A stretch of DNA of 19,839 nucleotides, taken from a virus (lineage: Duplodnaviria; Heunggongvirae; Uroviricota; Caudoviricetes). Position 1 is the stretch's first letter; every line of letters starts with the position of its first letter. The notes beneath the pieces were generated by a model. The model was not told the DNA's origin. It worked only from the letters and a program-made list of their open reading frames with translations, and made no database searches. Below are positions 3,302-16,641 of the stretch, in pieces. Both the position numbers and the translations under genes were made by a program. The DNA lies in IMG/VR virus record IMGVR_UViG_2778261687_000006, positions 1-19,839 of that record; one strand, 5' to 3'.

Positions 3302-3504
3302 AACTTAACCTTGTATTCGTTCTGCTTGTTGGAACGGGTTCCATCGTGGAAATATATTGCGCTCCTGGTTACCTCTACCCATTTGCGACGTTCAAGCTCA
3401 GCGATGAACCAAGAAACCTTCGATCTTGAGATACCAAGAATCTTTGCCATATCTCGGATGCTGTGTTTTCCACCTCGCAGCAATGAGAGGAGTGTTGGTT
3501 TCAT
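3298..3504 (-). CDS. Small HTH / winged-helix DNA-binding protein
   Basis: 68 aa; HSIRDMAKILGISRSKVSWFIAELERRKWVEV looks like a helix-turn-helix. Start ATG 3502-3504 overlaps the stop of the upstream gene; stop overlaps the exonuclease start. Confidence 0.5.
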   Translation of the reverse strand: MKPTLLSLLRGGKHSIRDMAKILGISRSKVSWFIAELERRKWVEVTRSAIYFHDGTRSNKQNEYKVKL

Positions 3505-3800
3505 GCCGCGTCCCTCTGCCCATCAAGCTGATCAGCCAGATCCCAGCGGGCGATAATTGCCATTGCCTCGCGCCGGTAGGCATCCATTAGTTCTTCGAAC
3601 TCAGGGCTGTCTTTAGCGGCCTCCAGTACTTCCTGGCGAACGCCTTTAACTGTTACAACGTCGAAAGTTGATGCCAGTTGATGAAGCCGGATACTCTCAA
3701 TCAGTTCAACTTGTCGGTCATATAGCTGTTCTGACAGACGGTAGTCCTTGTCGAATGCCAGCATGATTTTTTGAAGATTTTTCTGCTGATTAACGTTCAT
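3501..3800 (-). CDS. Hypothetical early phage protein (99 aa)
   Basis: ORF in the 3501..3815 frame; preferred start is the ATG at 3798-3800 (MNVNQQ...), preceded by GGAGG at a good spacing. No family recognised. Confidence 0.5.
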   Translation of the reverse strand: MNVNQQKNLQKIMLAFDKDYRLSEQLYDRQVELIESIRLHQLASTFDVVTVKGVRQEVLEAAKDSPEFEELMDAYRREAMAIIARWDLADQLDGQRDAA

Positions 3801-3802
3801 TA

Positions 3803-3955
3803 TCAGCCCTCCCATATCTCGTTATCGTTGGCCACATCGCGAGCTTCTTTGCTGACGAAAGCCCACTTAATGCCTTCCTGTAAGGTGCGGAACTTCCAGC
3901 TCATGAATCCGCATGCAGTAACGCAGTACCAACCGTTGATGATTTTCCACTGCAT
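3803..3955 (-). CDS. Small 50-aa ORF, first gene of the leftward early operon; not in the ORF track
   Basis: Hand translation MQWKIINGWYCVTACGFMSWKFRTLQEGIKWAFVSKEARDVANDNEIWEG; GAGG 9 nt upstream; stop TGA 3803-3805 lies 2 nt from the next start (TGATAATG). Confidence 0.3.
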   Translation of the reverse strand: MQWKIINGWYCVTACGFMSWKFRTLQEGIKWAFVSKEARDVANDNEIWEG

Positions 3956-3974
3956 AACTTGTTACCTCGGTCTG

Positions 3975-3989
3975 TTACCGTTTAGGTAA
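3975..3989. promoter_or_regulatory. Dyad operator-like site TTACCGTTTAGGTAA
   Basis: Inverted half-sites TTACC / GGTAA with a 5-bp spacer, overlapping the start of the leftward transcript. Confidence 0.5.
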
Positions 3990-4017
3990 TAATTATGCGT
4001 ATGTGGTTTGATGTCAA
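3989..4017 (-). promoter_or_regulatory. Candidate leftward early promoter (pL-like): -35 TTGACA at 4012-4017 (minus strand), -10-like TAATTA near 3989-3994
   Basis: Perfect TTGACA on the minus strand, about 16 bp spacer, A/T hexamer; flanked by dyad sites at 3975-3989 and 4037-4051. Confidence 0.4.
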
Positions 4018-4036
4018 TAGATATGAGTTAAAAAAA

Positions 4037-4051
4037 TTACCCGTTAGGTAA
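4037..4051. promoter_or_regulatory. Dyad operator-like site TTACCCGTTAGGTAA
   Basis: Same TTACC-N5-GGTAA dyad, upstream of the pL-like -35. Confidence 0.5.
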
Positions 4052-4060
4052 TCGAATAGG

Positions 4061-4086
4061 CAATAAAAAAGCCGCCATAAGGCGGC
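4061..4086 (-). terminator. Rho-independent terminator for the repressor-like gene
   Basis: On the minus strand: GCCGCC-ttat-GGCGGC hairpin followed by TTTTTTATTG, directly downstream of the stop of the 4109..4693 gene. Confidence 0.7.
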
Positions 4087-4108
4087 TTACTTACTGAAAA
4101 ATATGGTT

Positions 4109-4693
4109 TTATTGTTTGTTTTTTTCGTTCTGGTTGATGACAAATTCAATGTAACTTTCGATCTTTGCTTTCTCGGTTTCGGGTAACAATGCGTAGCGCG
4201 AGCGATCATAGTTGATGGTCGCAGGGTCGTGCGGGTGAATCAGTAATTCATAGCCGTGACGCCCGAATGCGGATGCAACATTCTCCAGGGTGGAAATGGA
4301 AACGCTGACCTCATTGTTTAACAGGCGGCTGATTGTCACCTGGGCGACGCCGGATGCGCGGTGTAGTTTTCCCTGCGTTGAAAGGTCGCGGCTTTCGCTC
4401 ATCCAGCGTTCCAGGTTGTGAGCCGCCAACTGACCAATGTCGCTTGGGCCGACAGGCTGAAAACCTTCCTGAGAAAGCGAGCGATCGATATCAAGCCAGT
4501 TACGGGGTTTATTGGCGGCAGCTTCAATTTTTCGTGCAACCTGGTCGCCGATAACCTTCTTGCCAAGAGCCCAGCGGTTTACCAGATTTGCCTGAGTTCC
4601 AAGTTTTTCAGCCATCCGCGTCTGAACACCATTGAATTCACGGTCGATCAAGTCGTTGAGATTTTGCCTGCGGACGTCCTGGATACTTTTCAT
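4109..4693 (-). CDS. Phage repressor-like protein with two XRE-type HTH domains, no peptidase S24 domain evident
   Basis: 194 aa; two HTH-like segments (TRMAEKLGTQANLVNRWALGKKVIGDQVARKIEAA and LHRASGVAQVTISRLLNNEVSVSISTLENVASAFG). Divergent from a Cro-like gene with operator repeats between. No Ala-Gly/Ser/Lys autocleavage signature seen. Confidence 0.65.
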   Translation of the reverse strand: MKSIQDVRRQNLNDLIDREFNGVQTRMAEKLGTQANLVNRWALGKKVIGDQVARKIEAAANKPRNWLDIDRSLSQEGFQPVGPSDIGQLAAHNLERWMSESRDLSTQGKLHRASGVAQVTISRLLNNEVSVSISTLENVASAFGRHGYELLIHPHDPATINYDRSRYALLPETEKAKIESYIEFVINQNEKNKQ

Positions 4694-4748
4694 TTTCTGG
4701 AAAATCGCCTCATATCTGAATCAGAAGATGATTCAATTTAAAGCAATA

Positions 4749-4822
4749 TTACCCAACAGGTAAATGCACCTCACGGGTAACTATCCTTGATTTTTGTTAC
4801 CTTATAGGTGAATATTTATTAT
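4749..4822. promoter_or_regulatory. Immunity-region operator/promoter cluster: three dyad sites (4749-4763, 4766-4780 degenerate, 4797-4811) and a PR-like promoter (-35 TTGTTA 4794-4799, -10 TATTAT 4817-4822)
   Basis: Three TTACC-N5-GGTAA-type sites spaced about 17-30 bp apart between the divergent genes; the third sits in the spacer of a plus-strand promoter 26 bp upstream of the Cro-like ATG. Confidence 0.5.
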
Positions 4823-4847
4823 CTGAAATAAATATCAGGCAATAGCT

Positions 4848-5078
4848 ATGAGCGATAACGGACATTTCGATTTCAAAAAGCACTGGCTTGCACTTACTCC
4901 GGATGAGCGTGAAGCCTTCGCACAGGAAGCCGGAACGACGAGTCACTATATCCAGACTCACTTAACAGGTAAGCGCAAAATGCCAGGTAAGGTATTGATG
5001 GATGGGCTTTTTAAAGCCTGTAAATCAAGACAATGGCTGCGCTCAAAAGCAGAACTGGCATACTTCTTCTACTCATGA
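4848..5078 (+). CDS. Cro-like small HTH regulator
   Basis: 76 aa, divergent from the repressor-like gene; HTH-like segment TPDEREAFAQEAGTTSHYIQTHLTGKRKMP; followed directly by an intrinsic terminator. Confidence 0.55.
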   Translation: MSDNGHFDFKKHWLALTPDEREAFAQEAGTTSHYIQTHLTGKRKMPGKVLMDGLFKACKSRQWLRSKAELAYFFYS

Positions 5079-5100
5079 TATCCAGCCACAACCCTCTGTA

Positions 5101-5122
5101 GACCGCCATCCGGCGGTCTTTT
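5101..5122 (+). terminator. Rho-independent terminator after the Cro-like gene
   Basis: GACCGCC-atcc-GGCGGTC hairpin followed by TTTT. Confidence 0.6.
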
Positions 5123-5133
5123 CATATCTATTC

Positions 5134-5148
5134 GTACCTCAAAGGTAA
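5134..5148. promoter_or_regulatory. Dyad operator-like site GTACCTCAAAGGTAA
   Basis: TTACC-N5-GGTAA family member just after the Cro terminator; an ATATGGTT box follows at 5160-5167. Confidence 0.45.
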
Positions 5149-5161
5149 TAAAAAACCAAAT

Positions 5162-5422
5162 ATGGTTGATCTTTTTTTTGTGTCAGCACAAAATAACCGT
5201 AATCCCAATACCAATAACAGGGCTTACCATGGAAATCATTACACGTATTTCGCTGTGATGCTCGCCACCGGAGAGATGGAACTGCACGAAGTGAAAGGTT
5301 TCTGGACCGACGACGCCAGGGTGAAAACCAAAGTCGCCGCAGATCAGTATCCGTTCCGAATCATCGGGGTAACGGTTAAACCAAAGAAAGCAGGTGGTGG
5401 CTGGAACATCGAAGAGTTCTGA
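5162..5422 (+). CDS. Hypothetical small protein; start codon uncertain (ATG 5162, or internal ATGs giving about 48-55 aa)
   Basis: ORF track entry; the first ATG lies inside the conserved ATATGGTT box and lacks an RBS. Coding status doubtful. Confidence 0.3.
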   Translation: MVDLFFVSAQNNRNPNTNNRAYHGNHYTYFAVMLATGEMELHEVKGFWTDDARVKTKVAADQYPFRIIGVTVKPKKAGGGWNIEEF

Positions 5423-5483
5423 ATCGACGATCTTTTTAGTTATCAATGTAATCAATAAGTTATGTGGATAAGCGAGGGTAAAG

Positions 5484-6197
5484 ATGGAAAGTAATATCAA
5501 AGGGTTAGTTTCCGCCGGGCATGAGATGGCTTCGGAACTGAAAGCAGAATGTGGTGCCGTTGATATGCGCAGTGTGGCAAAGCTGATCAGCGATTTGGCA
5601 ACGCAACTGGAAGTGCAACTGGTGCGTGCTAATGCGCTGGCCGAAGACCACCAGAGAGCCATTGAGTCAATTAAACAGGCTGATTCGGCTGTTAAGTTGG
5701 CACACGAGAAGTTTTCGGCGCTGGCTGCGGAGAATGCAAGACTGAAGGCCGGGGCTATGTATTTCTCATATGGCTCTGAATTTAGTTTCGAGTGTCACAA
5801 AACTGCTGAGGAGGCTATCGCTGCTGCTGAGGCTGCAATTGACGACTATAGAGGCGATGCTTGCGATGGATGGAGCGAAGAGGTCGAAAGCATTTGCTGG
5901 GGGGTAATTATTCAGCAGGCAACCAAGGTCGGTGAACGCAAGAAGAGGAAATGCGACAGAGTATCACCATGGATTGAAAGAGTTTGTGATTATGAGCTTC
6001 GACCTAATGTCGAAACCCCAGCCACCGATGCTTTCCTTGCTGAAGTTCGGGCGCAGGGGGTGGATATGGCTCGTAACGCGATGATTGATTTTGTTGATGG
6101 TGAAGTTGGGCCAAACAAGAACGTTCCGGGGCTGATTAGAGGCGCAGAGATATGCGTAAGTATTGCTGAACAGCTTCGCAAAGGAGGCAACCAGTGA
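5484..6197 (+). CDS. Hypothetical phage early protein with coiled-coil N-terminus (possibly Ea22-like)
   Basis: 237 aa; RBS GAGGG before the ATG; heptad-like Ala/Glu-rich N-terminal region; stop overlaps the start of the next gene. Confidence 0.55.
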   Translation: MESNIKGLVSAGHEMASELKAECGAVDMRSVAKLISDLATQLEVQLVRANALAEDHQRAIESIKQADSAVKLAHEKFSALAAENARLKAGAMYFSYGSEFSFECHKTAEEAIAAAEAAIDDYRGDACDGWSEEVESICWGVIIQQATKVGERKKRKCDRVSPWIERVCDYELRPNVETPATDAFLAEVRAQGVDMARNAMIDFVDGEVGPNKNVPGLIRGAEICVSIAEQLRKGGNQ

Positions 6198-6613
6198 GCG
6201 AAATTAATTACCAGGCACTGCGTGAGGCGGCGGAACGTGCAATTCCAGCAATGGAACGCCTGTTAATGTTGCCAGCTGATGATGATTTGTTAAGTGAACA
6301 GGAACTTAAAGATTACGGTGTGGATATTGATGCGCTCAACGCCTTCAAATTTCTGGCCGGACCAGAAACCGTGCTGGCACTACTGGATGAACGGGAAAGG
6401 AACCAGCAATACATCAAATCCCGCGATCAGGAGAACGAGGATATTGCGCTAACGGTTGGGAGGCTGCTAATCGAAAACGGCCGGCTTGTTGCCGATACGC
6501 TACGCCACTTAGCTGATAACGAAATCGACTCTGATTATTTTGCTATCACCTCAACGAATGAGAACGGTACTGAAATTGATCATGAGATGGCTATTACTGA
6601 GCCGCCAGGATGA
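6194..6613 (+). CDS. Ead/Ea22-like family phage protein (recollection-based assignment)
   Basis: 139 aa; GTG start with strong RBS AAGGAGG 6 nt upstream; N-terminus MSEINYQALREAAERA and VLALLDERERNQQ resemble lambdoid Ea22-like proteins as I remember them. Confidence 0.55.
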   Translation: MSEINYQALREAAERAIPAMERLLMLPADDDLLSEQELKDYGVDIDALNAFKFLAGPETVLALLDERERNQQYIKSRDQENEDIALTVGRLLIENGRLVADTLRHLADNEIDSDYFAITSTNENGTEIDHEMAITEPPG

Positions 6614-6761
6614 TGCACGTGTGCGCTGGCGTATAAAATCGATCAGCAGAAAACGGTGCGGTAAGTGCGGCGAGAGAGTTCCTGTTAATTCATGCCCGTG
6701 TAATGGTGACTCGCAATGCTGGGTGAATAAAGGCTGGCATGAAACGAAATTAATAGTGTGA
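6540..6761 (+). CDS. Possible small Cys-rich (zinc-ribbon-like) protein; coding status uncertain
   Basis: ORF overlaps the 3' end of the previous gene in another frame; C-terminal CGKCGERVPVNSCPCNGDSQCW has CxxC ... CxC spacing. Its stop codon lies inside the GTGACATGTCAC palindrome. Confidence 0.25.
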   Translation: MLSPQRMRTVLKLIMRWLLLSRQDDARVRWRIKSISRKRCGKCGERVPVNSCPCNGDSQCWVNKGWHETKLIV

Positions 6762-6769
6762 CATGTCAC
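6758..6769. repeat. Perfect 12-bp palindrome GTGACATGTCAC, copy 1
   Basis: Read directly; overlaps the stop codon of the 6540..6761 ORF, upstream of the terS terminator. Confidence 0.9.
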
Positions 6770-6810
6770 GAGTAGATTATGCATGATGAATTTGATGGGT
6801 TTTGAATACT

Positions 6811-6837
6811 GCCGCCAACTATGGCGGCTTTATTTTG
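6811..6837 (+). terminator. Terminator-like hairpin upstream of terS
   Basis: GCCGCC-aactat-GGCGGC followed by TTTATTTTG; same stem sequence as the 4061-4086 terminator. Confidence 0.5.
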
Positions 6838-6843
6838 CATGGT

Positions 6844-6872
6844 ACTATTACCACAACGGTAACTATTACCAC
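6844..6872 (+). repeat. Tandem direct repeat ACTATTACCAC (6844-6854 and 6862-6872) immediately upstream of terS
   Basis: GGTACTATTACCACAACGGTAACTATTACCACGG read directly; includes an inverted GGTAA-cta-TTACC arrangement. Confidence 0.8.
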
Positions 6873-6879
6873 GGTGGTT

Positions 6880-7476
6880 ATGATGCCTGCTGAACCTAAA
6901 ACCTATAAACGCAAATCAACGCAATTTAAGCCACTAACAGCAATGCAGGAGGCTTATTGCCAGTCATACATCAAAACGCCTGAAAACCAGACTCAGGCAG
7001 CGATTAACGCAGGATTTTCCCCAAATACAGCGGCAGTTAAAGCCAGTGTCATGATGCGCGATGAACGCATTCAAAAACGGATTGCCGAGTTGATGGAGGA
7101 GCGCAACAAACGAATGCGCGTCAGTGCTGATTACGTTCTCATGCGCCTGGTGGAGATCGACCAGATGGACGTGATTGATATCCTCAACGACGATGGGAGC
7201 CTTAAGCCAATCCGCGAGTGGCCGAAAATCTGGCGCACTACGCTTAGTGGCTTTGATCTGTCGTCGACCATCATGAACATGAACGAGGATTCGATAGAGA
7301 CAATCCTCAAAAAAATTAAATGGCCTGACAAGGTGAAGAACCTTGAGCTGATTGGTAAGCATGTTGATGTCAACGCGTTCAAAGAACGTCTGGATGTTAA
7401 TGTGAATGTGACAATTGCTGATCGCATAGCAGCAGCCAGGAAGCGACTCAAAGAACGTCAGGATGGTAATCAGTGA
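6880..7476 (+). CDS. Terminase small subunit (TerS)
   Basis: About 198 aa from the ATGATG at 6880; positioned immediately upstream of and overlapping the large terminase gene; basic helical N-terminal region (TAVKASVMMRDERIQKRIAEL) consistent with a DNA-binding small terminase. The track's TTG-start extension translates a direct-repeat region. Confidence 0.65.
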   Translation: MMPAEPKTYKRKSTQFKPLTAMQEAYCQSYIKTPENQTQAAINAGFSPNTAAVKASVMMRDERIQKRIAELMEERNKRMRVSADYVLMRLVEIDQMDVIDILNDDGSLKPIREWPKIWRTTLSGFDLSSTIMNMNEDSIETILKKIKWPDKVKNLELIGKHVDVNAFKERLDVNVNVTIADRIAAARKRLKERQDGNQ

Positions 7477-8948
7477 CAGATACAGCGTTATCTCCTGAAG
7501 AGCAGTTGATCGAGGATATTGCAGGGTTCACTCACGATCCGCTTGGCTATGCCCTCTATGCGTTCCCGTGGGGGGAAGAGGGGACTGAACTGGCACATGC
7601 TACCGGTCCACGTCAGTGGCAGGCTGATGCGTTCCGAGAGATACGTGATCACCTGCAGAATCCAGAGACGCGCTATCAGCCGCTTATGCTGGCACGTGCT
7701 TCTGGTCACGGTATTGGTAAATCCGCATTCATCTCAATGCTGATCAACTGGGGCATGTCCACTTGCGAGGATTGTAAGGTCGTGGTGACCGCCAATACCG
7801 ACAACCAGCTACGAACGAAGACCTGGCCGGAAATTATCAAGTGGTCGAACCTTGCTATCACGAAAGACTGGTTCACCTGTACCGCTACCGCGATGTACAG
7901 CAATGATCCTGGGCACGACAAGCGGTGGCGAGCTGACGCAATCCCCTGGTCTGAGCACAATACTGAGGCGTTCGCCGGACTACACAACGAGCGCAAACGT
8001 ATCATCGTGGTATTCGATGAAGCGTCGAACATTGCGGATCTGGTGTGGGAAGTTGCCGAGGGTGCGCTTACGGACGAAGACACTGAGATTATCTGGGTGG
8101 CGTTCGGAAACCCGACGCGTAATACCGGACGTTTCCGAGAATGTTTCCGCAAATATAAACACCGCTGGAAAACTGCGCAGATTGACAGCCGGACGGTTGA
8201 AGGCACTAACAAACAGCAGTTGCAGAAATGGGTTGATGACTACGGGGAAGACAGCGACTTCGTTAAAATCCGTGTGCGTGGCATATTCCCTGATGCATCT
8301 GAATTGCAGTTTATCCCTACCGGTCTTACTGACGAGGCAATGAAACGGGTGGTAACCGCTGCGCAGGTGGCACATGCTCCGGTGATAATCGGCGTTGACC
8401 CGGCATACTCCGGCGTTGATGACGCGGTGATATACCTGCGGCAGGGGCTGCACAGTAAGGTGCTGTGGACTGGCAACAAGACCACCGACGATCTGATTAT
8501 GGCGAAGCGTATCGCTGACTTTGAAGACCAGTATCAGGCCGACGCGGTGTTCATCGACTTCGGTTACGGTACTGGCCTGAAGTCAATCGGTGACGACTGG
8601 GGGCGCACATGGCAACTTGTTCCGTTCGGTGGCGCGTCTACTGACCCGCAGATGCTCAACAAGCGTGGGGAGATGTTCAACTCATGTAAGACATGGCTGA
8701 GGCTGGGCGGGATGCTGGATGACCAGGAAACAGCGGACGACCTGTCGACGGCAGAGTACAAAGTTCGCGTGGACGGTAAAATCGTTATCGAACCGAAGGA
8801 AGATATCAAAGAGCGACTTGGGCGTTCGCCGGGGAAAGGCGATGCGCTATTGCTGACGTTTGCTTTCCCTGTGTCGAAGCGCCTGCGAATTCCCGGTCAG
8901 CAGAACCAGCAAGGCAAGGCCATCACAGATTACGACCCGTTTGCGTGA
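7473..8948 (+). CDS. Terminase large subunit (TerL), ATPase plus nuclease
   Basis: 491 aa; Walker A-like ASGHGIGKSAF, Walker B-like RIIVVFDEASN, C-terminal acidic nuclease-like motif VIIGVDPAYSG. GTG start overlaps the terS stop (GTGA). Confidence 0.85.
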   Translation: MTDTALSPEEQLIEDIAGFTHDPLGYALYAFPWGEEGTELAHATGPRQWQADAFREIRDHLQNPETRYQPLMLARASGHGIGKSAFISMLINWGMSTCEDCKVVVTANTDNQLRTKTWPEIIKWSNLAITKDWFTCTATAMYSNDPGHDKRWRADAIPWSEHNTEAFAGLHNERKRIIVVFDEASNIADLVWEVAEGALTDEDTEIIWVAFGNPTRNTGRFRECFRKYKHRWKTAQIDSRTVEGTNKQQLQKWVDDYGEDSDFVKIRVRGIFPDASELQFIPTGLTDEAMKRVVTAAQVAHAPVIIGVDPAYSGVDDAVIYLRQGLHSKVLWTGNKTTDDLIMAKRIADFEDQYQADAVFIDFGYGTGLKSIGDDWGRTWQLVPFGGASTDPQMLNKRGEMFNSCKTWLRLGGMLDDQETADDLSTAEYKVRVDGKIVIEPKEDIKERLGRSPGKGDALLLTFAFPVSKRLRIPGQQNQQGKAITDYDPFA

Positions 8949-8949
8949 T

Positions 8950-9690
8950 TTATTGCTTATTTTTCACGGCTTCAGCAATCATTCTCTCAGCCTGTGATGT
9001 ATATGTTTTTCGCAAGGGTTCATGGCCCATATGCAATACGATACCTTCCTTTTCTTTTTCCTTTAATTCTTGTATGAGATTATTTATTTTGGCCTCCCTA
9101 TCTTCAAGCATTCTGGCGGACTTTTCTGCCTCAATCTTTAACGCTGCAGCCACTGATTGCATGTTTTCCAGCTTCTTATTCAATTCCAAAACCTTATCGG
9201 AGAGCCTATCTCTTTCCGCCGTTAGCTCACCCATCCTGGCCTGTGACTCCGTAATTCTTTCCTTCATAGCCTGTATGTCTTTTTCGGCGCCAGTCTTAAC
9301 TTTGTCGTATGTCACATCGTGCTTTGCCTTCAGGCGCTGCAGGCGTGTGGCGCGATGAATGCGCTTGGCCTTCCGGTGGTTCTCTATCGAATCGTAATTA
9401 TCAAGAGGTTTGGCTTGCCACTTTGAAATCACGTTGTTGATCCAGGGCATGCCGCCGCACAGGATTATTGCTGAAACACATGGGAATGCTAATACCGTTT
9501 TCCAACTGCTATTACTGGAAATGTAGGTGATCTTGTCGATGATGCTGGAGTCGCTGAGGAGTAAGTATAAAATCGACTTCCAGTTAAAGGCGCACCATGA
9601 CAGTGCGAACGCTCCAAACACTGGATTTCTGACCCTTTGCGCAGCGGTATTAACGGTTGAAGATAGGTATTCTTTAAGTGATTCAAGCAT
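8950..9690 (-). CDS. AT-rich cargo gene: membrane-anchored coiled-coil protein of unknown function (candidate superinfection-exclusion or abortive-infection factor)
   Basis: 246 aa; two hydrophobic segments near the N-terminus, then a long charged heptad-like region (KERITESQARMGELTAERDRLSDKVLELNKKLENMQ). AAGGG RBS. Convergent with terL with a 1-nt gap. Visibly AT-rich compared with neighbours. Confidence 0.55.
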   Translation of the reverse strand: MLESLKEYLSSTVNTAAQRVRNPVFGAFALSWCAFNWKSILYLLLSDSSIIDKITYISSNSSWKTVLAFPCVSAIILCGGMPWINNVISKWQAKPLDNYDSIENHRKAKRIHRATRLQRLKAKHDVTYDKVKTGAEKDIQAMKERITESQARMGELTAERDRLSDKVLELNKKLENMQSVAAALKIEAEKSARMLEDREAKINNLIQELKEKEKEGIVLHMGHEPLRKTYTSQAERMIAEAVKNKQ

Positions 9691-9720
9691 GTCCAGGCCC
9701 TTTTAGGTTTTTTTCTGATT

Positions 9721-9735
9721 CTACCTTTAAGGTAA
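9721..9735. promoter_or_regulatory. Dyad operator-like site CTACCTTTAAGGTAA in the promoter of the 8950..9690 gene
   Basis: Lies in the spacer of a candidate minus-strand promoter (ATGACC ... TAGAAT) about 40 bp upstream of the start codon. Confidence 0.45.
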
Positions 9736-9757
9736 TCTTCGGTCATTATGAAAAACG

Positions 9758-9803
9758 TATCCCTATGAGGGGATAATGTCGTTGATATCCTCTGATGAGG
9801 ATA
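9758..9803. promoter_or_regulatory. Two tandem dyads of a second type, TATCC-N8-GGATA (9758-9775 and 9786-9803)
   Basis: TATCCctatgaggGGATA and TATCCtctgatgaGGATA, 28 bp apart, upstream of the 8950..9690 promoter. Confidence 0.4.
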
Positions 9804-9829
9804 AAACAAAGCCAGCTCATCGGCTGGCT
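9801..9829 (-). terminator. Rho-independent terminator after the 9850..10221 gene
   Basis: On the minus strand: AGCCAGC-cgatgag-GCTGGCT hairpin followed by TTGTTTTAT, about 20 nt past the stop codon. Confidence 0.5.
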
Positions 9830-9833
9830 GTTT

Positions 9834-9845
9834 GTGACATGTCAC
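9834..9845. repeat. Perfect 12-bp palindrome GTGACATGTCAC, copy 2
   Basis: Read directly; 5 nt beyond the stop of the 9850..10221 gene, before its terminator hairpin. Confidence 0.9.
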
Positions 9846-9849
9846 GGTG

Positions 9850-10221
9850 TTATTGCTCGCTTAACTTCTGCTTCAGCAAGTAACCTTCAAGCATCCAGAT
9901 TTTGTTTACAGCATTCTGCCGGGCAATCTTCCGACCAATTTCCGCATCAAAGTTTTCCGGGCTTGCACAGGCGCTCTCTCCGGTGACGGTGAAGCCGTTG
10001 CGCAGCACCAGAACGCAGAACGTCAGCAGAGAAAGTGATTCGTGCGGCTGGTAGTTTACCTCTCCGCCAGTATGTTTCGCTTTTATGGCTACGCCAAAGA
10101 CACCATCTTCTGCTGTGAAATATGCCTCCTGAGCAATAATGCTCTCGATATGGTCTGGCGTAACGCGCGGCGCGGCTAAACCTTTAGCCTGAATTTCAGA
10201 TTCAATGTCTTTGTCACTCAT
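9850..10221 (-). CDS. Conserved hypothetical phage protein (123 aa)
   Basis: ORF with RBS AAGGTGA; sequence feels familiar from enterobacterial prophages but I cannot name the family with confidence. Confidence 0.55.
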   Translation of the reverse strand: MSDKDIESEIQAKGLAAPRVTPDHIESIIAQEAYFTAEDGVFGVAIKAKHTGGEVNYQPHESLSLLTFCVLVLRNGFTVTGESACASPENFDAEIGRKIARQNAVNKIWMLEGYLLKQKLSEQ

Positions 10222-10424
10222 AGTCTAATCTCACCTTAAAAAAATGCCCGGCGAACCGGGCGAACTGGAAGCAATGAGTTATGCCTTCCGTGGCTGTACT
10301 GGTTTACAGCATGAAGTCATCGCAATGGCGTCCTGCTGTAAAAAGGGCGGTGATAGTCCTTCAAGGGAAACCATCACCGCCAAGCCCCTGGAACTTCTGG
10401 CATCACGGTCCTTAGGCGTGATTC

Positions 10425-10501
10425 TGGCGTGGCATGCAGGATTCGAACCTGCGACCAACCGCTTAGAAGGCGGTTGCTCTGTCCAACTGAGCTAATGCCA
10501 C
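10425..10501 (-). tRNA. tRNA-Arg (anticodon UCU), phage-encoded
   Basis: Hand-folded cloverleaf on the minus strand: acceptor GTGGCAT/ATGCCAC, D-arm GCTC-AGTTGGACA-GAGC, anticodon arm ACCGC-CTTCTAA-GCGGT (U33, anticodon TCT, A37), variable loop TGGTC, T-arm GCAGG-TTCGAAT-CCTGC, discriminator G, encoded CCA. Acceptor and anticodon stems differ from host argU as I recall it. Confidence 0.85.
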
Positions 10502-10823
10502 AACGCTGAGAGCACTTAGCCTGTTAAGGCGCCACACTTTGTCGCGGCTCCATAAATGCTCTCATCGTTGCACCCTCGTCTCTTCCGAGGCGTCACACCG
10601 AATCGCCGGGATGGTGAATCCCCGTGCGCGGAATAAAACCGCTCGACTTGCACATTCCGGCTACCTGGTTCGTTTGCCCGAGCAAGGGAGGGTGCCCCTT
10701 AAACGTATCCAGACCGCTATCGTCGCATGTGCCATACGCCGTACTGCTCAACATAAAAGCTCACTCCACCTGTTCAATTTAACGACAAGCCAGTCAGGTT
10801 AGTAACCGGAATGAACTCTTTTG

Positions 10824-10838
10824 TTACCTGAAAGGTAA
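10824..10838. promoter_or_regulatory. Dyad operator-like site TTACCTGAAAGGTAA
   Basis: Lies beside a minus-strand TTGACA (10855-10860) and about 70 bp upstream of a -10-like GATAAT (10899-10904) for the plus-strand operon. Confidence 0.45.
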
Positions 10839-10928
10839 TAATTTGCGCATTAAATGTCAACTGTCTACGACAAGTAAATCATATGTGGTTAAATTGGTGA
10901 TAATTTAATTGCGTACGGAGTCATTGAT

Positions 10929-11186
10929 ATGTGCATGGGTAGCTCACCATCAGTGCCTGCAACACCAGAAGTTCAGGCAGCACCACAGGAGCAGGATGCC
11001 GCCGTTGTTGATGCCCGCGACGAAGAAACTCGTCGCCGTCGCGCTGCTGCTGGTCGTAGTTCTACGCTGCTTGAGGCGGTGCAGAACCGCATGAACGATA
11101 TGTTCAATAAGTCGAATCTCTACCAGTCGCTGCCGGTGTTCAGCGGTATCTGCGTGTTAACTACTCCGTCGCAACTGGCCCACTAA
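10929..11186 (+). CDS. Hypothetical protein (85 aa); may be part of a frame-disrupted larger gene
   Basis: RBS GGAG 8 nt upstream of the ATG. A second frame stays open from 11111 to 11267 without any start codon and translates to protein-like sequence. Confidence 0.4.
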   Translation: MCMGSSPSVPATPEVQAAPQEQDAAVVDARDEETRRRRAAAGRSSTLLEAVQNRMNDMFNKSNLYQSLPVFSGICVLTTPSQLAH

Positions 11187-11279
11187 CGGCTGGCGAATTC
11201 ACTGCTGGTATCAGTCTTGATGTTGATGCCAATACGCCGTATCCGATCCGCTCAAAAGTAACTGGTTAAGGTGATATCG

Positions 11280-11630
11280 ATGTCAGGTGAGAAACCAAGA
11301 TACCGCGTTCTGCGCCTCTCTCATATCCATAACACTCTGTGGCCGGAGGGGGCAGAAATCGAATACGAAGGTGAGCCTGGTAGCGCACTGGAACCTGTTA
11401 ACGATGCAGCCAGACAGGCAAAAGCAAAGGTAGCAGGAAAGGTGTCAATGGCAGCAACCAGTACCAAAATCATCAACGATGTGTCAGATGATGGTGAGCT
11501 GGATAAGCTCCGTGAAGAGTACGAATTGCTCTTTAACGAGAAGCCACACCATAACGCCAAAGCCGAAACGCTCCGCGAGAAGATCGCAGATAACCGGTTC
11601 TGGTATTCAGCGTGGAACATGGAAAGGTGA
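11280..11630 (+). CDS. Hypothetical protein (116 aa)
   Basis: ATG at 11280 with RBS GGTGA 6 nt upstream; acidic, helical-looking sequence. The +1 frame stays open across its last 150 nt. Confidence 0.5.
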   Translation: MSGEKPRYRVLRLSHIHNTLWPEGAEIEYEGEPGSALEPVNDAARQAKAKVAGKVSMAATSTKIINDVSDDGELDKLREEYELLFNEKPHHNAKAETLREKIADNRFWYSAWNMER

Positions 11631-11679
11631 ATTAACGAGAAGTGTTTTCCTGTTTAAATCGTTCCCTATCTCGGTGGTT

Positions 11680-12240
11680 ATGCGTCACTGGTCACGCGCT
11701 ATGGGTATGCCGTCTGCTGGTGGGCGTGCGGCATATATTGCGACGTTTATTGCCAGTACGACCATTCTTGGAGCTTTGTCGCAGCAACTTAACGACCTTG
11801 CGTCTGGTCGTAATCCTCGCGAGATGACAGGAGAAGATGCCGCAAAATTCTGGCTTGGTGCTCTATTGAAAGGTGGTGGTCTTGGCCTTTACGGTGACTT
11901 TTTATTGTCAGATCACACTAGGTACGGAAGCGGCGCGCTGGCGTCGATGCTTGGCCCGGTGGCTGGTCTGGTTGATGACGTAGTGAAGATTGCTCAGGGC
12001 ATACCGTTAAATGCTGTGGAAGGGAAGAGTGAGCAGACTGGTGGTGATCTGGTGAAGCTGGGGAAAGGTTTGATGCCAGGTGCGAATCTCTGGTACTTGA
12101 AGGCGGCTCTCGATCACATGATCTTTAACCAGATGCAGGAGTATTTTTCACCAGGCTATTTGCGTAAAATGGAGCAACGTTCGAAGAAAGAGTTTAACCA
12201 GACATACTGGTGGCGACCTCAGGATGTCACTCCGCAATAA
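11680..12240 (+). CDS. Hypothetical protein with Gly-rich hydrophobic segments; start poorly defined (ATG 11680 or GTG 11674), possible frameshift fusion with the upstream ORF
   Basis: Long open frame 11479..12240, protein-like only after about 11640; no well-spaced RBS at the candidate starts. Confidence 0.45.
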   Translation: MRHWSRAMGMPSAGGRAAYIATFIASTTILGALSQQLNDLASGRNPREMTGEDAAKFWLGALLKGGGLGLYGDFLLSDHTRYGSGALASMLGPVAGLVDDVVKIAQGIPLNAVEGKSEQTGGDLVKLGKGLMPGANLWYLKAALDHMIFNQMQEYFSPGYLRKMEQRSKKEFNQTYWWRPQDVTPQ

Positions 12241-12249
12241 GGATGAGAA

Positions 12250-12390
12250 ATGATTGCTTTTATTCTTGTTGTATTTGTGCTTGTTGCCCTTGGCGTTATG
12301 AATCGTAAATGTATCATTGAAGACGGTGAATTTGCTGTAGCAGTTGTTTTGATATTATCTGGTGTAGCAGGGTACATAGGTTTGTCATAG
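12250..12390 (+). CDS. Small hydrophobic peptide (46 aa, two predicted membrane segments); not in the ORF track
   Basis: Hand translation MIAFILVVFVLVALGVMNRKCIIEDGEFAVAVVLILSGVAGYIGLS; RBS AGGA upstream; stop TAG at 12388-12390. Confidence 0.35.
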   Translation: MIAFILVVFVLVALGVMNRKCIIEDGEFAVAVVLILSGVAGYIGLS

Positions 12391-12397
12391 CTTGAGT

Positions 12398-12409
12398 GTG
12401 ACATGTCAC
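12398..12409. repeat. Perfect 12-bp palindrome GTGACATGTCAC, copy 3 (extended form TGTGACATGTCACA)
   Basis: Read directly; in the convergent gap between the 12250..12390 ORF and the 12434..12691 gene. Confidence 0.9.
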
Positions 12410-12433
12410 AGGCCGCTTTCGCGGCCCTTAAAT

Positions 12434-12691
12434 TTACCGGATTTGTTTTCGTAATTGTTCGGCACAATAGTCGAGATGTGTTTGCAGATCCTGCATAGAC
12501 ATCTGTGAGCTGGTGACGTAGTTAATCAGTGCAGTCAGTTCGGCAAGTGGGCCATCGACATTAAATCCATCCTTATCGAGATCCCGGAGTAATTTCATCA
12601 AGTGCGATCCCTCCACCAGTGACCTGACGCCTCCCGGCGTGTGAATCCTTTCGGTAAATCCGTCTTCCAGTGGATAGTGATACTGCTGCAT
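12434..12691 (-). CDS. Hypothetical protein (85 aa from the ATG at 12691)
   Basis: ORF track 12434..12757 with a GTG at 12757; the internal ATG at 12689-12691 has GGAG about 8 nt upstream. Divergent from the tailspike gene. Confidence 0.45.
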   Translation of the reverse strand: MQQYHYPLEDGFTERIHTPGGVRSLVEGSHLMKLLRDLDKDGFNVDGPLAELTALINYVTSSQMSMQDLQTHLDYCAEQLRKQIR

Positions 12692-12767
12692 CTTATCTTC
12701 TCCATGCAATAACTGTATATTTATGCAGTAGCAAATAATTTGTTTGCTATCCAGCACGTTTTGCGAA

Positions 12768-12782
12768 TCACCTGAAAGGTAA
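12768..12782. promoter_or_regulatory. Dyad operator-like site TCACCTGAAAGGTAA
   Basis: In the divergent intergenic region between the 12434..12691 gene and the tailspike gene; followed by the ATCCATATGTGGTT box (12809-12822) and a -10-like TAGAAT (12833-12838). Confidence 0.45.
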
Positions 12783-12886
12783 TATCTGTTCGTATTTATG
12801 GTTTATCTATCCATATGTGGTTTTTCAGGTAATAGAATAACCGGATATGCGGCGCAACGGGTGCTGCGACTATCTGGAGATTTAAC

Positions 12887-15571
12887 ATGACGGTCTCAAC
12901 CGAAGTTGACCATAACGAATATACAGGTAATGGCGTTACGACTTCATTTCCTTATACCTTTCGAATTTTTCAGAAGTCAGACCTGGTTGTGCAGGTTGTT
13001 GATCTGGATGAAAATATAACCACTCTTGTGCTTGATACTGATTATTCGATTACAGGTACTGGTGGATACACGGGGGGGAATGTTGTTTTATCAACTGCTT
13101 TAGGCAATGGGTATAAGATTTCTATTTCAAGAGAGTTGCCGGTTACCCAAGAAACAGACCTAAGGAACCAGGGGAAGTTTTTTGCAGAAGTGCATGAGGA
13201 TGCATTTGATAAGTTAACTATGCTTGTTCAGCAGGTAAGAAGTTGGTTTAGTCTGTCGTTAAGAAAACCATCCTTTGTAGCCAACTATTATGACGCCCTG
13301 GGCAACTATATCAGAAATCTCAGGGATCCATCTCGGCCGCAAGATGCTGCTACAAAGAACTATGTAGACAGTATTTCTGAAACCAATCTCAACAGAACGC
13401 TAAGAACACCTGAACCTATACCCACACTTCCATCTGCCGCTGTCAGGGCGAACAAGATAATAGCCTTCGATAATAGTGGGTCTCCTTTTGTAACATTGCC
13501 GCCATCTGGTTCTGCCACTGATGTTCTTGTTGAATTAGTGAAACCAACAGGTGCCGGGTTATCAGGTTATAGCGATTCTATCCAGTATCCTGACGGTACT
13601 GTTGGTAGTGCCATTAAAGATCAGAATTTCAGGAAAAAAATAATCTACAAACTTCCATTTCAGTTCGCTGGGTATTCTGATGCACTGGCGGCAATTGGAG
13701 CTGGAAGCATCATATACCCGCAGGGTGCTGACTATGATGATGATGGTCTACTCTTCATTAACTATGTGCCTAATGCTGGAGGGGCGCTTAGGGTTATAGT
13801 TGTTTATAACCAGGCAGGAGAGCAAGTAACGTGGTTTTATAGTCCAAACAGTAGTAATCAGTCTGTGGCTATATATGGCGGAAGTTCATCACGTAGATTG
13901 TATGACAGACGTCTTGGGGATGATTTTGTTTATTATTATGACATAACCACATTACCCGCAGCAGGTAGCACGCTTTCAGGGCACACAATAACGACAATTC
14001 AGTCGGCTGGATCACATATGTGCATTGAGGGTAATTTACTCTTCTGCACATTAAACGCGACACCAGTAGGATTGTCACAATCACAGACTGTTATAAATTC
14101 TTATCGTCTTGATACAGGTGAGAAGCAGGGAACAATAAATGTCTCTCAGATGCTTACAGGGTTTGCAACTCCAGAGCTCTCCCCTACCTACTATTACATG
14201 GTATGGAAAATTCAGGGTATAGCATACAAAAATGGGATCCTTCATATAGGCGTAGGTGGCAGTTATCGTCCTACATTTGATGATGCAAAATACCCTGTTC
14301 ATGATTACGGAGTCCTCAGAGTGTCACTCTCTGGTGAGTTAATAGACCACTCTGTTGTGAAATCAGATAAGTTGATGACTTATCTGGCATCAAACGGTTG
14401 CACCGTCTCAAGAACAGAGTCAGAGGGATGTTTCAAGCACCCTGACGGCACTATCCATTCAATTCTTATCGGTGATATGGCTGAATCATCTCCTAGCACA
14501 CCCAATGGCATTGTTATAATGAGGGAGTTTTCAAGAGATGGGTTTGACATGCTGGATGCCGCTTCAGGATACTGCCCGATACCAACATATGGATTTAATA
14601 GGCTCATGCGTTCGGAGCATGGGGAACTGCGCGATCCAGTCTTAAATACAGTCTTCAGCAGTGTTACTCAAATTCTTGATTTAATGGCTTCATTAAACAT
14701 AACTGAGTTCTCTTGGTTTTCAACCATTGCTCCTTCGCTCACCACGATACCTGGTCTTAACTACGTAATAGGACAAATTTACCATGTTACTAATATGAAC
14801 AATGCAGGATTCATTATTGAATCCTCCGGTACTGTACTTGGGCTAGAAATTTATTCCGTAGTTGGCAGAATTGGGTCATGGACAGCTACAAGGCGCTCAT
14901 TGTCAGGAACAAAGCTTAATATTAATAATTCAGGTGGTTTAGGCAAAATATCATTTACAACGTCAACAGGAAAAGAAGTTGGCATCGCTCAAATAAACTA
15001 TACCGGAACCTCTACGCCTCTTGTTATCGGCTCAGGGGGTACTTTAAACCCTAATGCTATTTTCTTCTTCACAAATCCGACAGTGACAAGTGAAAGTGGT
15101 GGGACTCAATCTCTTCAGATTTACAGTGATCAGGTATTGCCTGGCGTCGCTAGCGCGCAGTCTAACGGGAGTGCATCATTTAAATGGACTCAGGTCTACG
15201 CCGATTCTGGTTCCATTAACACATCTGACAGAAGAAAGAAGACAGATTTCGAGGATATAAGTGAAGCCGAAAAGCGTGTGGCTATCAAGATTAAGGGAAT
15301 GATTTGTCGGTACAGAATGAAGGATGCGGTAGCTATTAAAGGCGATGGCGCAAGATATCATATAGGTGCAATTGTCCAGGATGTTATCTCTGCGTTCGAG
15401 GATGAAGGGCTAGATCCCATGCGTTATGGGATGGTTTGCTACGATAAGTGGGATAAGAAGGAACCAGAATATGATGAAAATGGAATCATGACATTCTCAG
15501 GTTGCGAAGCTGGTGATGGTTACTCTTTGAGATATGATGAGATGTTATGTTTCATTATTTCTGCTATTTAA
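12887..15571 (+). CDS. Tailspike / tail fibre protein with C-terminal intramolecular chaperone (peptidase S74-like self-cleaving domain)
   Basis: 894 aa; N-terminus MTVSTEVDHNEYTGNGVTTSFPYTFRIF resembles the T7-gp17-type particle-binding domain and, from memory, epsilon15-like tailspikes; Ser/Thr/Gly-rich central region; C-terminal ...INTSDRRKKTDFEDISEAEKRVAIKIK... matches the endosialidase-type chaperone domain. RBS GGAG. Confidence 0.85.
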   Translation: MTVSTEVDHNEYTGNGVTTSFPYTFRIFQKSDLVVQVVDLDENITTLVLDTDYSITGTGGYTGGNVVLSTALGNGYKISISRELPVTQETDLRNQGKFFAEVHEDAFDKLTMLVQQVRSWFSLSLRKPSFVANYYDALGNYIRNLRDPSRPQDAATKNYVDSISETNLNRTLRTPEPIPTLPSAAVRANKIIAFDNSGSPFVTLPPSGSATDVLVELVKPTGAGLSGYSDSIQYPDGTVGSAIKDQNFRKKIIYKLPFQFAGYSDALAAIGAGSIIYPQGADYDDDGLLFINYVPNAGGALRVIVVYNQAGEQVTWFYSPNSSNQSVAIYGGSSSRRLYDRRLGDDFVYYYDITTLPAAGSTLSGHTITTIQSAGSHMCIEGNLLFCTLNATPVGLSQSQTVINSYRLDTGEKQGTINVSQMLTGFATPELSPTYYYMVWKIQGIAYKNGILHIGVGGSYRPTFDDAKYPVHDYGVLRVSLSGELIDHSVVKSDKLMTYLASNGCTVSRTESEGCFKHPDGTIHSILIGDMAESSPSTPNGIVIMREFSRDGFDMLDAASGYCPIPTYGFNRLMRSEHGELRDPVLNTVFSSVTQILDLMASLNITEFSWFSTIAPSLTTIPGLNYVIGQIYHVTNMNNAGFIIESSGTVLGLEIYSVVGRIGSWTATRRSLSGTKLNINNSGGLGKISFTTSTGKEVGIAQINYTGTSTPLVIGSGGTLNPNAIFFFTNPTVTSESGGTQSLQIYSDQVLPGVASAQSNGSASFKWTQVYADSGSINTSDRRKKTDFEDISEAEKRVAIKIKGMICRYRMKDAVAIKGDGARYHIGAIVQDVISAFEDEGLDPMRYGMVCYDKWDKKEPEYDENGIMTFSGCEAGDGYSLRYDEMLCFIISAI

Positions 15572-15576
15572 AAAAT

Positions 15577-16588: not shown

Positions 16589-16641
16589 TTTAATATTTAT
16601 CCAATATTTTTAATGGGTTCCACAATCATTAACTACAATAT

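What the first reader, a model, noticed from the sequence alone, without database searches (positions are those of the whole stretch)
8950..9829. AT-rich membrane coiled-coil cargo gene with its own regulated promoter, candidate exclusion or defense factor
The 246-aa protein has two N-terminal hydrophobic segments and a long charged heptad-like C-terminal region. It is visibly more AT-rich than the terminase gene it converges on (1-nt gap, no intervening terminator) and occupies the slot where a portal gene would normally follow terL. Upstream it has a private control region: a TTACC-N5-GGTAA dyad in the promoter spacer (9721-9735), two tandem TATCC-N8-GGATA dyads of a different type (9758-9775, 9786-9803), and the terminator of the preceding gene. 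Insertion at a module junction, distinct composition, opposite orientation and independent regulation are the usual marks of a moron, and many such genes are superinfection-exclusion or abortive-infection factors. The function here is not established.
Basis: inference. Interest (0 to 1): 0.65.

Follow-up and report, generated by a model that had tools for sequence, protein, structure and literature searches.

The report
Prophage membrane coiled-coil cargo gene
A defective phiV10-like prophage of E. coli carries an optional gene for an inner-membrane protein with a long coiled coil; the family is uncharacterised and looks like a phage-exclusion factor, but its "private" control signals turn out to be the prophage's own genome-wide operator and backbone hairpins.

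Summary
A 246-aa ORF (8950-9690, minus strand) converges on terL with a 1-nt gap.

The element is a phiV10/epsilon15-like (Uetakevirus) prophage, here badly deleted. Compared with phiV10, the gene plus 68 nt of promoter is an 812-bp indel in a variable cargo slot between terL and the portal module.

The protein belongs to a large family with no curated entry. PHROGs lists it as unknown function, and nothing real matches in Pfam, NCBIfam, PADLOC, PDB or BFVD. The first 160 residues are conserved (77% identity) and the C-terminus is hypervariable (14%).

Members are always lone, opposite-strand cargo in temperate phages. Two distant members sit in the P2 gpA-gpQ defence hotspot. A SieB-like exclusion or abortive-infection role is the best guess, but it is untested.

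The control region is not private:
- TACC-N5-GGTA occurs 8 times in the window (0.14 expected), including both sides of the repressor gene, so it is probably the phage's immunity operator.
- The TATCC dyads and the terminator are also present in phiV10, which lacks the gene.

Interest is moderate.

The parts
8950..9690 (-). CDS of 246 aa: conserved N-terminal membrane module (about residues 1-160, hydrophobic segments 24-45 and 64-86, basic juxtamembrane helix) plus a hypervariable C-terminal coiled coil (161-246)
   Evidence: (phrog_4780, E 4e-89)
9698..9702 (-). Shine-Dalgarno-like AAGGG, 7 nt before the ATG, within an A-rich leader (9691-9717)
   Evidence: read from the sequence; the leader is conserved in homologues
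9718..9746 (-). Sigma-70-like promoter: -35 ATGACC (9746-9741), 17-nt spacer, -10 TAGAAT (9723-9718)
   Evidence: the same architecture is conserved in 41 distinct homologue upstream regions
9722..9734 (.). Operator-like palindrome TACCTTTAAGGTA, centred about -17 and overlapping the spacer and the first two bases of the -10; one of 8 copies of the phage-wide TTACC-N5-GGTAA motif
9750..9775 (-). Stem-loop TATCCC-CTCATA-GGGATA followed by CGTTTTTCAT: a terminator-like insulator just upstream of the promoter. The boundary of the indel relative to phiV10 lies at about 9758.
9786..9803 (.). Second TATCC-N8-GGATA stem-loop; part of the backbone, also present in phiV10
9810..9829 (-). Rho-independent terminator hairpin plus TTTGTTTT after the Gp49-family gene. 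phiV10 annotates the same hairpin as the + strand terminator after terL.
7473..8948 (+). Terminase large subunit, the convergent neighbour; its stop codon lies 1 nt from the stop of the cargo gene
9850..10221 (-). Gp49/Sf6 gp66 family gene (PF13876), the more common alternative cargo of the same slot
4109..4693 (-). CI-like HTH_3 repressor (phiV10 gp40 homologue), flanked by copies of the same dyad (3976, 4038, 4750); the inferred binder of the promoter dyad

Best explanation
The gene is an optional cargo gene (moron-like) of Uetakevirus prophages.

It encodes an inner-membrane protein. The inferred topology is N-in, a TM hairpin, and a C-terminal coiled coil in the cytoplasm. The family-defining part is the membrane hairpin plus a basic juxtamembrane helix. 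The last roughly 90 residues are a coiled coil that is swapped or diversified between otherwise near-identical alleles.

The most likely function is phage-phage conflict, in the manner of lambda/P22 SieB or RexB. In this model the variable cytoplasmic coiled coil recognises a component of an incoming or developing rival phage, and the conserved membrane module then either compromises the membrane (abortive infection) or blocks a membrane-associated step of infection.

Expression comes from its own sigma-70 promoter. The spacer and -10 of that promoter carry one copy of the prophage's genome-wide TTACC-N5-GGTAA operator, so the resident CI-like repressor probably holds the gene down in the lysogen and it rises on derepression. 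In lambdoid and Serratia hosts of the family, where the operator has no partner or is absent, expression would be constitutive. Because the gene converges on terL with no terminator, late transcription should silence it by collision or antisense.

Shown here: the gene, the indel, the family structure, the contexts, the conserved promoter and the genome-wide motif. Inferred: topology, repressor binding, lysogen expression level, transcriptional interference and the defence function itself.
For: - Optional gene: the 812-bp indel relative to phiV10 holds only the ORF and its promoter. The family occupies 12 of 77 otherwise 98-99% identical terL-gp06 slots, alternating with other small genes. phiV10 is a viable phage without it.
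- Real, selected protein: more than 200 close homologues. An exhaustive profile search found 275 cluster representatives at E<=1e-10.
- Modular, conflict-like evolution: mean pairwise identity is 77% for residues 1-160 and 14% for 161-end. Of 259 pairs that are at least 80% identical in the N-part, 206 are below 30% in the C-part.
- The residues conserved down to about 20% identity lie in the membrane hairpin (R19, F28, W32, N36, W37, S46, P70, P82). That suggests an active membrane module rather than a plain anchor.
- Context is always a lone gene on the strand opposite to the flanking phage genes. It follows terL in Uetakeviruses of E. coli, Klebsiella, Cronobacter and Serratia, even at 25-29% identity. 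It lies between replication and nin genes in lambdoids and next to parA in a phage-plasmid-like element.
- Two distant members are cargo of the gpA-gpQ locus of P2-like prophages. That locus is a documented anti-phage hotspot holding old and tin (PMC9122126).
- Same architecture and placement as lambda sieB: two TM segments, a basic helix and a cytoplasmic C-domain, on the opposite strand inside a lytic operon, with 0-nt convergence on N.
- Promoter and dyad are conserved in 41 distinct upstream regions.
- The motif occurs 8 times in the window and 10 times in phiV10, always intergenic, with tripartite and bipartite clusters around the repressor gene.
- The known exclusion gene oac carries the same motif upstream.
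Against: - No experiment and no homology to any characterised defence or exclusion protein. PADLOC, Pfam and NCBIfam give only coiled-coil noise. hhalign against SieB, DS-13B and DS-43 gives probabilities below 1%.
- Fold searches return only generic long helices.
- If the dyad is a repressor operator centred at -17, the gene should be largely off in the lysogen. That fits a lytic-cycle function better than constitutive defence.
- None of the alternative cargos of the same slot is a known defence gene.
- TM1 is only marginally hydrophobic, so the topology is uncertain.
- Guilt by association in prophage hotspots also applies to non-defence accessory genes.
Confidence: 0.45

Rival explanations
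1. The gene is a lytic-cycle accessory for the phage itself. It would be repressed in the lysogen through the immunity operator and made after induction or infection. Possible roles are transient exclusion of secondary infections during lytic growth (as T4 Imm/Sp do), tuning of lysis timing, or tethering a replication or packaging step to the membrane.
For: - The operator-like dyad is centred about -17 in its promoter. The same motif lies next to the terS and gp06/portal starts and in the int promoter (in phiV10), and it flanks the PL-like promoter.
- The family has stayed in the same terL-portal slot across Uetakeviruses while diverging to 25% identity. That looks like a long-term resident rather than a random moron.
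Against: - It is dispensable: phiV10 and about 84% of close relatives lack it.
- It is oriented against the late operon with no terminator between, so late transcription should oppose it.
- Alleles differ widely among phages with 98-99% identical terL, so it does not co-evolve with the packaging machinery.
- The same cassette works outside Uetakeviruses, where no cognate operator network exists. The Serratia version has a plain TATAAT promoter without the full dyad.
- oac, which acts in lysogens, carries the same motif.
Confidence: 0.25
2. The gene is a lysogenic-conversion factor that changes host physiology rather than phage sensitivity. Examples would be a membrane-anchored coiled-coil modulator of division, envelope stress or motility, similar in architecture to EzrA or ZapG.
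For: - It shows the moron pattern and inner-membrane location, with a coiled coil facing the cytoplasm where host machineries sit.
- A related Uetakevirus prophage (phiv142-3) is reported to raise stress survival, as cited in PMC9782041. That phage lacks this gene in the slot.
Against: - A hypervariable C-terminus is unexpected for a partner that is a conserved host protein.
- The exact allele is rare: 5 of 5426 complete E. coli genomes.
- No homology to any host regulator was found.
Confidence: 0.15
3. The gene is a membrane toxin or addiction element that stabilises the (now defective) prophage. The antisense terL read-through transcript, or repressor control, would act as the antidote.
For: - Convergent, terminator-less overlap with terL transcription.
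- The gene is intact in a prophage that has lost its replication, portal-capsid, tail and antirepressor genes.
- The membrane hairpin contains conserved polar residues.
Against: - At 246 aa with a long polymorphic coiled coil, it is unlike small type I toxins.
- No antitoxin gene or known sRNA is present; Rfam finds only the tRNA.
- The identical protein also sits in intact prophages, so its retention in the remnant may simply be recent.
Confidence: 0.1

Closest known systems
Lambda / P22 SieB (Pfam PF14163), a superinfection-exclusion (abortive) protein
   Same: Both have two N-terminal hydrophobic segments, a basic juxtamembrane helix and a cytoplasmic C-terminal part. Both are single genes on the strand opposite to the surrounding lytic operon. 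Both converge on the neighbouring gene with a 0-1 nt gap and no terminator (lambda sieB 34482-35036 against N 35037-35438).
   Different: There is no detectable homology (no PF14163 hit; hhalign probability 0.75%). The C-terminal part here is a long polymorphic coiled coil rather than a compact domain. The slot differs: terL-portal rather than the PL operon. Function is untested here.
phiV10 Oac (O-antigen acetyltransferase), the known exclusion gene of the same phage genus
   Same: It is a reverse-strand, AT-rich cargo gene in the same prophage (15599-16588), with a copy of the same TACC-N5-GGTA dyad just upstream (16643).
   Different: Oac is a polytopic acyltransferase (PF01757) that changes the receptor. 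The present protein has no enzymatic domain.
Membrane effectors of abortive-infection systems (RexB; Csx28-like DS-43 and the two-gene DS-13 of DefensePredictor; 2TM effectors of CBASS, Pycsar and retrons)
   Same: These are small proteins with an N-terminal TM helix or helices followed by helical cytoplasmic parts. Several of them are carried on mobile elements.
   Different: There is no homology (hhalign probabilities below 1%). Most of those effectors depend on a separate sensor protein or signal, whereas this gene is always alone. Its sensor would have to be its own variable coiled coil.
Cargo of the P2 gpA-gpQ hotspot (old, tin and others; Rousset et al. 2022, PMC9122126)
   Same: Two distant family members (P0200, 514 aa; P0183, 396 aa) sit in exactly this locus of P2-like prophages.
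   Different: The window gene itself is in a Uetakevirus, not in P2. No family member was found among the E. coli hotspot sequences held in that paper's supplements; the motif search found nothing.
Morons as defined for lambdoid phages (Hendrix and colleagues; reviewed in PMC3594210)
   Same: The gene is present or absent between otherwise adjacent genes of close relatives, has its own promoter, and has a terminator-like hairpin upstream.
   Different: It has no terminator of its own downstream. Its composition is not distinct from the element as a whole. Its promoter is wired into the phage's own operator network rather than being independent.

Membership tests
Moron (independent transcription unit added to a phage genome) | Present in some and absent from other closely related phages, inserted between genes that are adjacent in the relatives | tested here: met
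   The indel is 812 bp relative to phiV10. The family occupies 12 of 77 close slots.
Moron (independent transcription unit added to a phage genome) | Own promoter upstream and own terminator downstream | tested here: inconclusive
   A promoter-like site is conserved in 41 upstream variants. No terminator-like site lies between the gene's stop codon and terL.
Moron (independent transcription unit added to a phage genome) | Nucleotide composition distinct from the host phage | tested here: not met
   GC is 44.8% for the gene against 47.3% for the window and 46.7% for terS. Only terL (54.6%) differs clearly.
Moron (independent transcription unit added to a phage genome) | Expressed from the repressed prophage | not testable with these tools
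   The operator-like dyad in the spacer argues for at least partial repression. No expression data are available.
SieB (PF14163) | Sequence or profile membership | tested here: not met
   No PF14163 hit at E<=0.01. hhalign of the family profile against lambda SieB gives probability 0.75%. Lambda SieB itself scores 1e-29.
SieB (PF14163) | Aborts lytic growth of superinfecting phage when expressed from the prophage | not testable with these tools
   This needs plating and one-step growth assays.
Known anti-phage defence systems (PADLOC-DB v2) | A significant match to a system component outside low-complexity or coiled-coil regions | tested here: not met
   Only LmuB/JetC coiled-coil segments match, at E 5e-4 to 6e-3 for the window protein. 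The same is true for 55 distant members.
i-spanin (Rz-like) or holin of a lysis cassette | Located in the lysis cassette beside the endolysin, with an o-spanin partner | tested here: not met
   The phage's own lysis module is about 7 kb away: it matches the phiV10 holin-endolysin-spanin block, and its spanin-like ORF is a DUF2514 protein at 18077-18574 (phiV10 annotation). The gene studied here is alone beside terL.
phrog_4780 and related PHROGs (13369, 35327, 24478), unknown function | Profile match over the conserved N-terminal module | tested here: met
   E 4.3e-89 over residues 1-215, with weaker matches to the three related PHROGs.

The most novel reading that the evidence does not exclude
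The family would be a new, widespread, single-gene anti-phage system of temperate phages. A conserved membrane hairpin would act as the effector, fused to an exchangeable cytoplasmic coiled-coil sensor. Different prophage lineages (Uetakevirus, lambdoid, P2-like, phage-plasmid) would carry it as swappable alleles. In Uetakeviruses it would be plugged into a previously undescribed regulatory design, in which one operator (TTACC-N5-GGTAA) sits at nearly every transcription unit of the genome, so that the immunity repressor gates defence, conversion and lytic genes alike.
Probability: 0.3. Interest if true: 0.65.

Novelty: new variant of a known kind. Interest (0 to 1): 0.45.

Why it matters
If the exclusion role holds, this adds a new membrane-anchored, single-protein defence family with a naturally modular specificity domain. 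That would be convenient for domain-swap experiments on how coiled coils could sense phages. It would also mark the Uetakevirus terL-portal slot as a cargo hotspot worth mining, since several other unknown small genes alternate there.

Separately, the genome-wide operator motif gives a directly testable model of how epsilon15/phiV10-type phages control all their transcription units, including the known conversion gene oac. phiV10 is used as an O157 reporter phage.

If the role does not hold, the gene is one more conserved hypothetical protein in a prophage.

Tried and rejected
- Structural or housekeeping identity. Pfam, PHROGs, PADLOC and NCBIfam on the protein and on 55 distant members gave only coiled-coil noise (PEARLI-4, UPF0242, SMC, LmuB, JetC).
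- Named relatives. All source names are 'hypothetical' or 'coiled-coil domain-containing'.
- Literature. Searches by accession and PHROG number found nothing. The Vassallo 2022 DUF4041 protein has a different architecture. The DefensePredictor TM proteins are not homologous. The Rousset 2022 supplements contain no family member by motif search. Brenes & Laub 2025 is not held in the library.
- TATCC-N8-GGATA as a second operator type. Rejected in favour of stem-loops for four reasons: only these two copies exist in the window; they are present in phiV10 without the gene; the loop sequence and even the loop length vary between homologues while the arms persist; and the proximal one is followed by a T-run.
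- MqsA-type palindrome (ACCT-N3-AGGT). I recalled this from memory as a possible host regulator site. I dropped it once the motif proved to be a phage-wide repeat that clusters around the prophage repressor gene.
- Species-representative genomes. The scan found no relative. An IMG/VR scan with the Pantoea member also found none. The diverse alignment was too divergent to seed a locus search.
- A known RNA in the region. Rfam finds only tRNA-Arg.

Full report
**1. What is there**

The window is a phiV10/epsilon15-type (genus Uetakevirus) prophage of E. coli. terS, terL, a Gp49-family gene, tRNA-Arg and gp06 match phiV10 and many E. coli prophages at 96-98%.

The ORF at 8950-9690 (minus strand) encodes 246 aa. 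It ends 1 nt from the terL stop codon, and no terminator-like site lies between them.

- Residues 64-86 are strongly hydrophobic; residues 24-45 are marginally so.
- The stretch after the second segment carries 12 K/R residues. The positive-inside rule therefore favours N-in/C-in with a cytoplasmic C-terminal part. This topology is an inference.
- Residues 134-214 sit in one heptad register: 78% aliphatic at a/d positions against 21% elsewhere, period 3.50, with 5/1000 shuffles reaching that power. AF2 models them as a single helix with pLDDT above 90.

**2. The indel**

I aligned the window, phiV10 and E. coli UTME-9. Relative to phiV10 the window has an extra 812 bp, from about 8947 to 9758. 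That is exactly the ORF plus 68 nt upstream.

Everything beyond 9758 is also present in phiV10, directly after its terL. This includes both TATCC-N8-GGATA dyads and the hairpin that phiV10 annotates as a terminator.

So these elements belong to the backbone. They are better read as stacked stem-loops separating terL, the Gp49-family gene and the cargo gene. In homologues the arms persist while the loop sequence and length vary. The promoter-proximal stem-loop is followed by a T-run, and in other hosts a different GC-rich terminator takes its place.

**3. The slot**

In 77 IMG/VR contigs whose terL is 98-99% identical, the terL-gp06 interval is 0.8-2.0 kb. Its cargo varies:

| Cargo | Slots |
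|---|---|
| Gp49 family | 27 |
| None of the listed cargos | 25 |
| This family | 12 |
| 140-aa protein | 6 |
| 113-aa protein | 4 |
| 115-aa protein | 2 |

One further slot carries both the 140-aa and the 113-aa gene. None of the alternatives matches Pfam or PADLOC.

The exact allele is rare: 5 of 5426 complete E. coli genomes. The identical protein also occurs in intact prophages.

**4. The family**

- The best match is phrog_4780 (E 4e-89, unknown function), with three related PHROGs.
- There are more than 200 close homologues in Enterobacteriaceae.
- An exhaustive profile search gave 1710 cluster representatives at E<=1e-3 and 275 at E<=1e-10.
- No Pfam, NCBIfam or PADLOC model covers the conserved N-terminal module, either in the window protein or in 55 distant members. 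All hits are coiled-coil noise.
- Every source name is 'hypothetical' or 'coiled-coil'.
- I found no paper on the family.

There is a sharp break at residue 160. Mean pairwise identity is 77% before it and 14% after it, and C-terminal lengths range from 63 to 115 aa. Of 259 pairs at least 80% identical in the N-part, 206 are below 30% in the C-part.

At about 20% overall identity, the surviving invariant residues lie in the membrane hairpin.

**5. Contexts**

The gene is always alone and on the strand opposite to its neighbours.

- **After terL in Uetakeviruses.** This holds for E. coli, Klebsiella and Cronobacter, and for Serratia homologues at 25-29% identity. In 57 of 69 IMG/VR loci both terL and the portal are on the opposite strand.
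- **Between replication and nin genes in lambdoid prophages** of Klebsiella, Enterobacter and Salmonella.
- **Beside parA in a phage-plasmid-like element**.
- **In a small chromosomal islet in Serratia**.
- **In the gpA-gpQ locus of P2-like prophages**, for two distant members. Rousset et al. describe this locus as an anti-phage hotspot holding old and tin (PMC9122126).

Lambda sieB has the same architecture and the same kind of placement, including zero-gap convergence on N. It shows no homology.

**6. Regulation**

The roughly 75 nt upstream are conserved in 41 distinct homologue loci. The layout is:

- a terminator hairpin with a T-run;
- a -35 element (A/G)TGAC(C/T);
- a 17-nt spacer;
- a -10 element TAnAAT or TATACT;
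- an A-rich leader.

In the spacer, TACC-N5-GGTA is conserved while the adjacent bases vary.

The decisive finding is that this dyad is not private. It occurs 8 times in the window, against 0.14 expected, and 0 of 200 shuffles reach 8. All copies lie outside coding sequence if terS starts at the in-frame ATG at 6880 or 6883 (see section 8); the listed TTG-start ORF from 6802 would include the 6849 copy.

- Two copies bracket a perfect TTGACA-16-TAATTA promoter next to the repressor gene.
- One copy lies between the repressor gene and the cro-like gene.
- Others lie before terS, before gp06, before oac and after an early terminator.

phiV10 has 10 exact copies, all intergenic. Near-copies complete a tripartite cluster between gp40 and gp41. 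One copy overlaps the -10 of the int promoter, with the same architecture as here.

Lambdoid hosts of the family carry only the one copy that travels with the cassette. There the left arm is degenerate more often: intact in 6/10 upstream variants against 22/24 in Uetakevirus contexts. The Serratia homologue has a plain TTACCTATAAT promoter.

I infer that the dyad is the operator of the CI-like repressor (4109-4693). This has not been shown. The one paper on a Uetakevirus repressor does not define operators (PMC9782041).

A site centred at -17 predicts repression in the lysogen. However oac, which acts in phiV10 lysogens, has the same motif upstream. The motif therefore cannot simply mean 'off'.

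**7. Verdict**

- It is an optional, reverse-strand cargo gene with its own promoter, and nothing refutes a defence role.
- The polymorphic C-module, the consistent lone reverse-strand placement in several phage types and the P2 hotspot members add circumstantial support.
- The regulation is not independent: the promoter is wired into the phage's operator network.
- The TATCC dyads and the terminator are backbone elements.
- The compositional contrast exists only against terL.
- Function remains untested. I put the exclusion or abortive-infection reading at about 0.45.

**8. Side observations**

- The prophage is grossly defective. Against phiV10 it lacks the replication genes (phiV10 33228-35318), gp06-3' through the capsid gene (3501-7598), the tail and ejection genes (8066-18683) and the Bro-N antirepressor (19522-20542).
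- The tailspike C-terminus and oac differ from those of phiV10.
- The terS start is probably the in-frame ATG at 6880 or 6883, not the TTG at 6802, because the TTG-start ORF would include the 6849 dyad.

Noticed in passing
window 3976-3988, 4038-4050, 4750-4762, 5135-5147, 6849-6861, 9722-9734, 10825-10837, 16643-16655; phiV10 (L081) 88, 3253, 20498, 26871, 31954, 32016, 32728, 33113, 35071, 35133: A genome-wide operator-like dyad, TTACC-N5-GGTAA, sits at almost every intergenic promoter or terminator junction of this phage type. There are 8 copies in the window against 0.14 expected. They include a bipartite cluster around a perfect TTGACA-16-TAATTA promoter and a tripartite cluster between the repressor gene and the cro-like gene. 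I found no description of this motif in the papers I could search.
   Followed up: partly
window 5247-5249, 11072-11130, 11589-11596, 12426-12434 (junctions relative to phiV10): The prophage is a deleted remnant. Relative to phiV10 it lacks the DnaT/P replication genes, the portal-protease-capsid block, the tail and ejection-protein block, and the Bro-N antirepressor. It keeps the immunity region, RecET-like genes, terS/terL, the cargo gene, the tailspike, oac and the lysis genes.
   Followed up: partly
terL-gp06 slot in L083-L162 (window equivalent 8949-10928): The slot alternates between several small reverse-strand genes of unknown function: the Gp49/Sf6 gp66 family and unrelated 140-aa, 113-aa and 115-aa proteins. 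None matches Pfam or PADLOC. It may be a cargo hotspot of Uetakeviruses.
   Followed up: partly
window 12887-16588: The 894-aa tailspike (with a C-terminal Peptidase_S74 chaperone domain) and the very AT-rich acyltransferase (35% GC) diverge from phiV10 after the tail-fibre N-terminus. This suggests a swapped serotype-specific receptor-binding and O-antigen-modification module.
   Followed up: no
window 6802-6885: The terS ORF is listed from a TTG at 6802, and that version includes the 6849 dyad. In-frame ATG codons at 6880 and 6883, preceded by GGTGG, would give the 197-aa terS called in related contigs. The annotated 224-aa start is therefore probably too far upstream.
   Followed up: no
window 10425-10501 (-): tRNA-Arg (anticodon UCU) lies on the reverse strand inside the slot. 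It overlaps the listed 83-aa gp04-like ORF (10244-10495, +), so one of the two annotations may be spurious.
   Followed up: no
window 192-842 (-): An MT-A70 family DNA methyltransferase matches a PADLOC type II methyltransferase model (E 1e-77). No cognate nuclease is nearby, so it is probably an orphan phage methylase.
   Followed up: no
L169 1-513 and L173 10776-12560: The P2-like prophages that carry distant family members also hold other candidate defence genes nearby: a NACHT/STAND NTPase next to the CI-type repressor gene, and a KAP-NTPase-like gene with a faint match.
   Followed up: no
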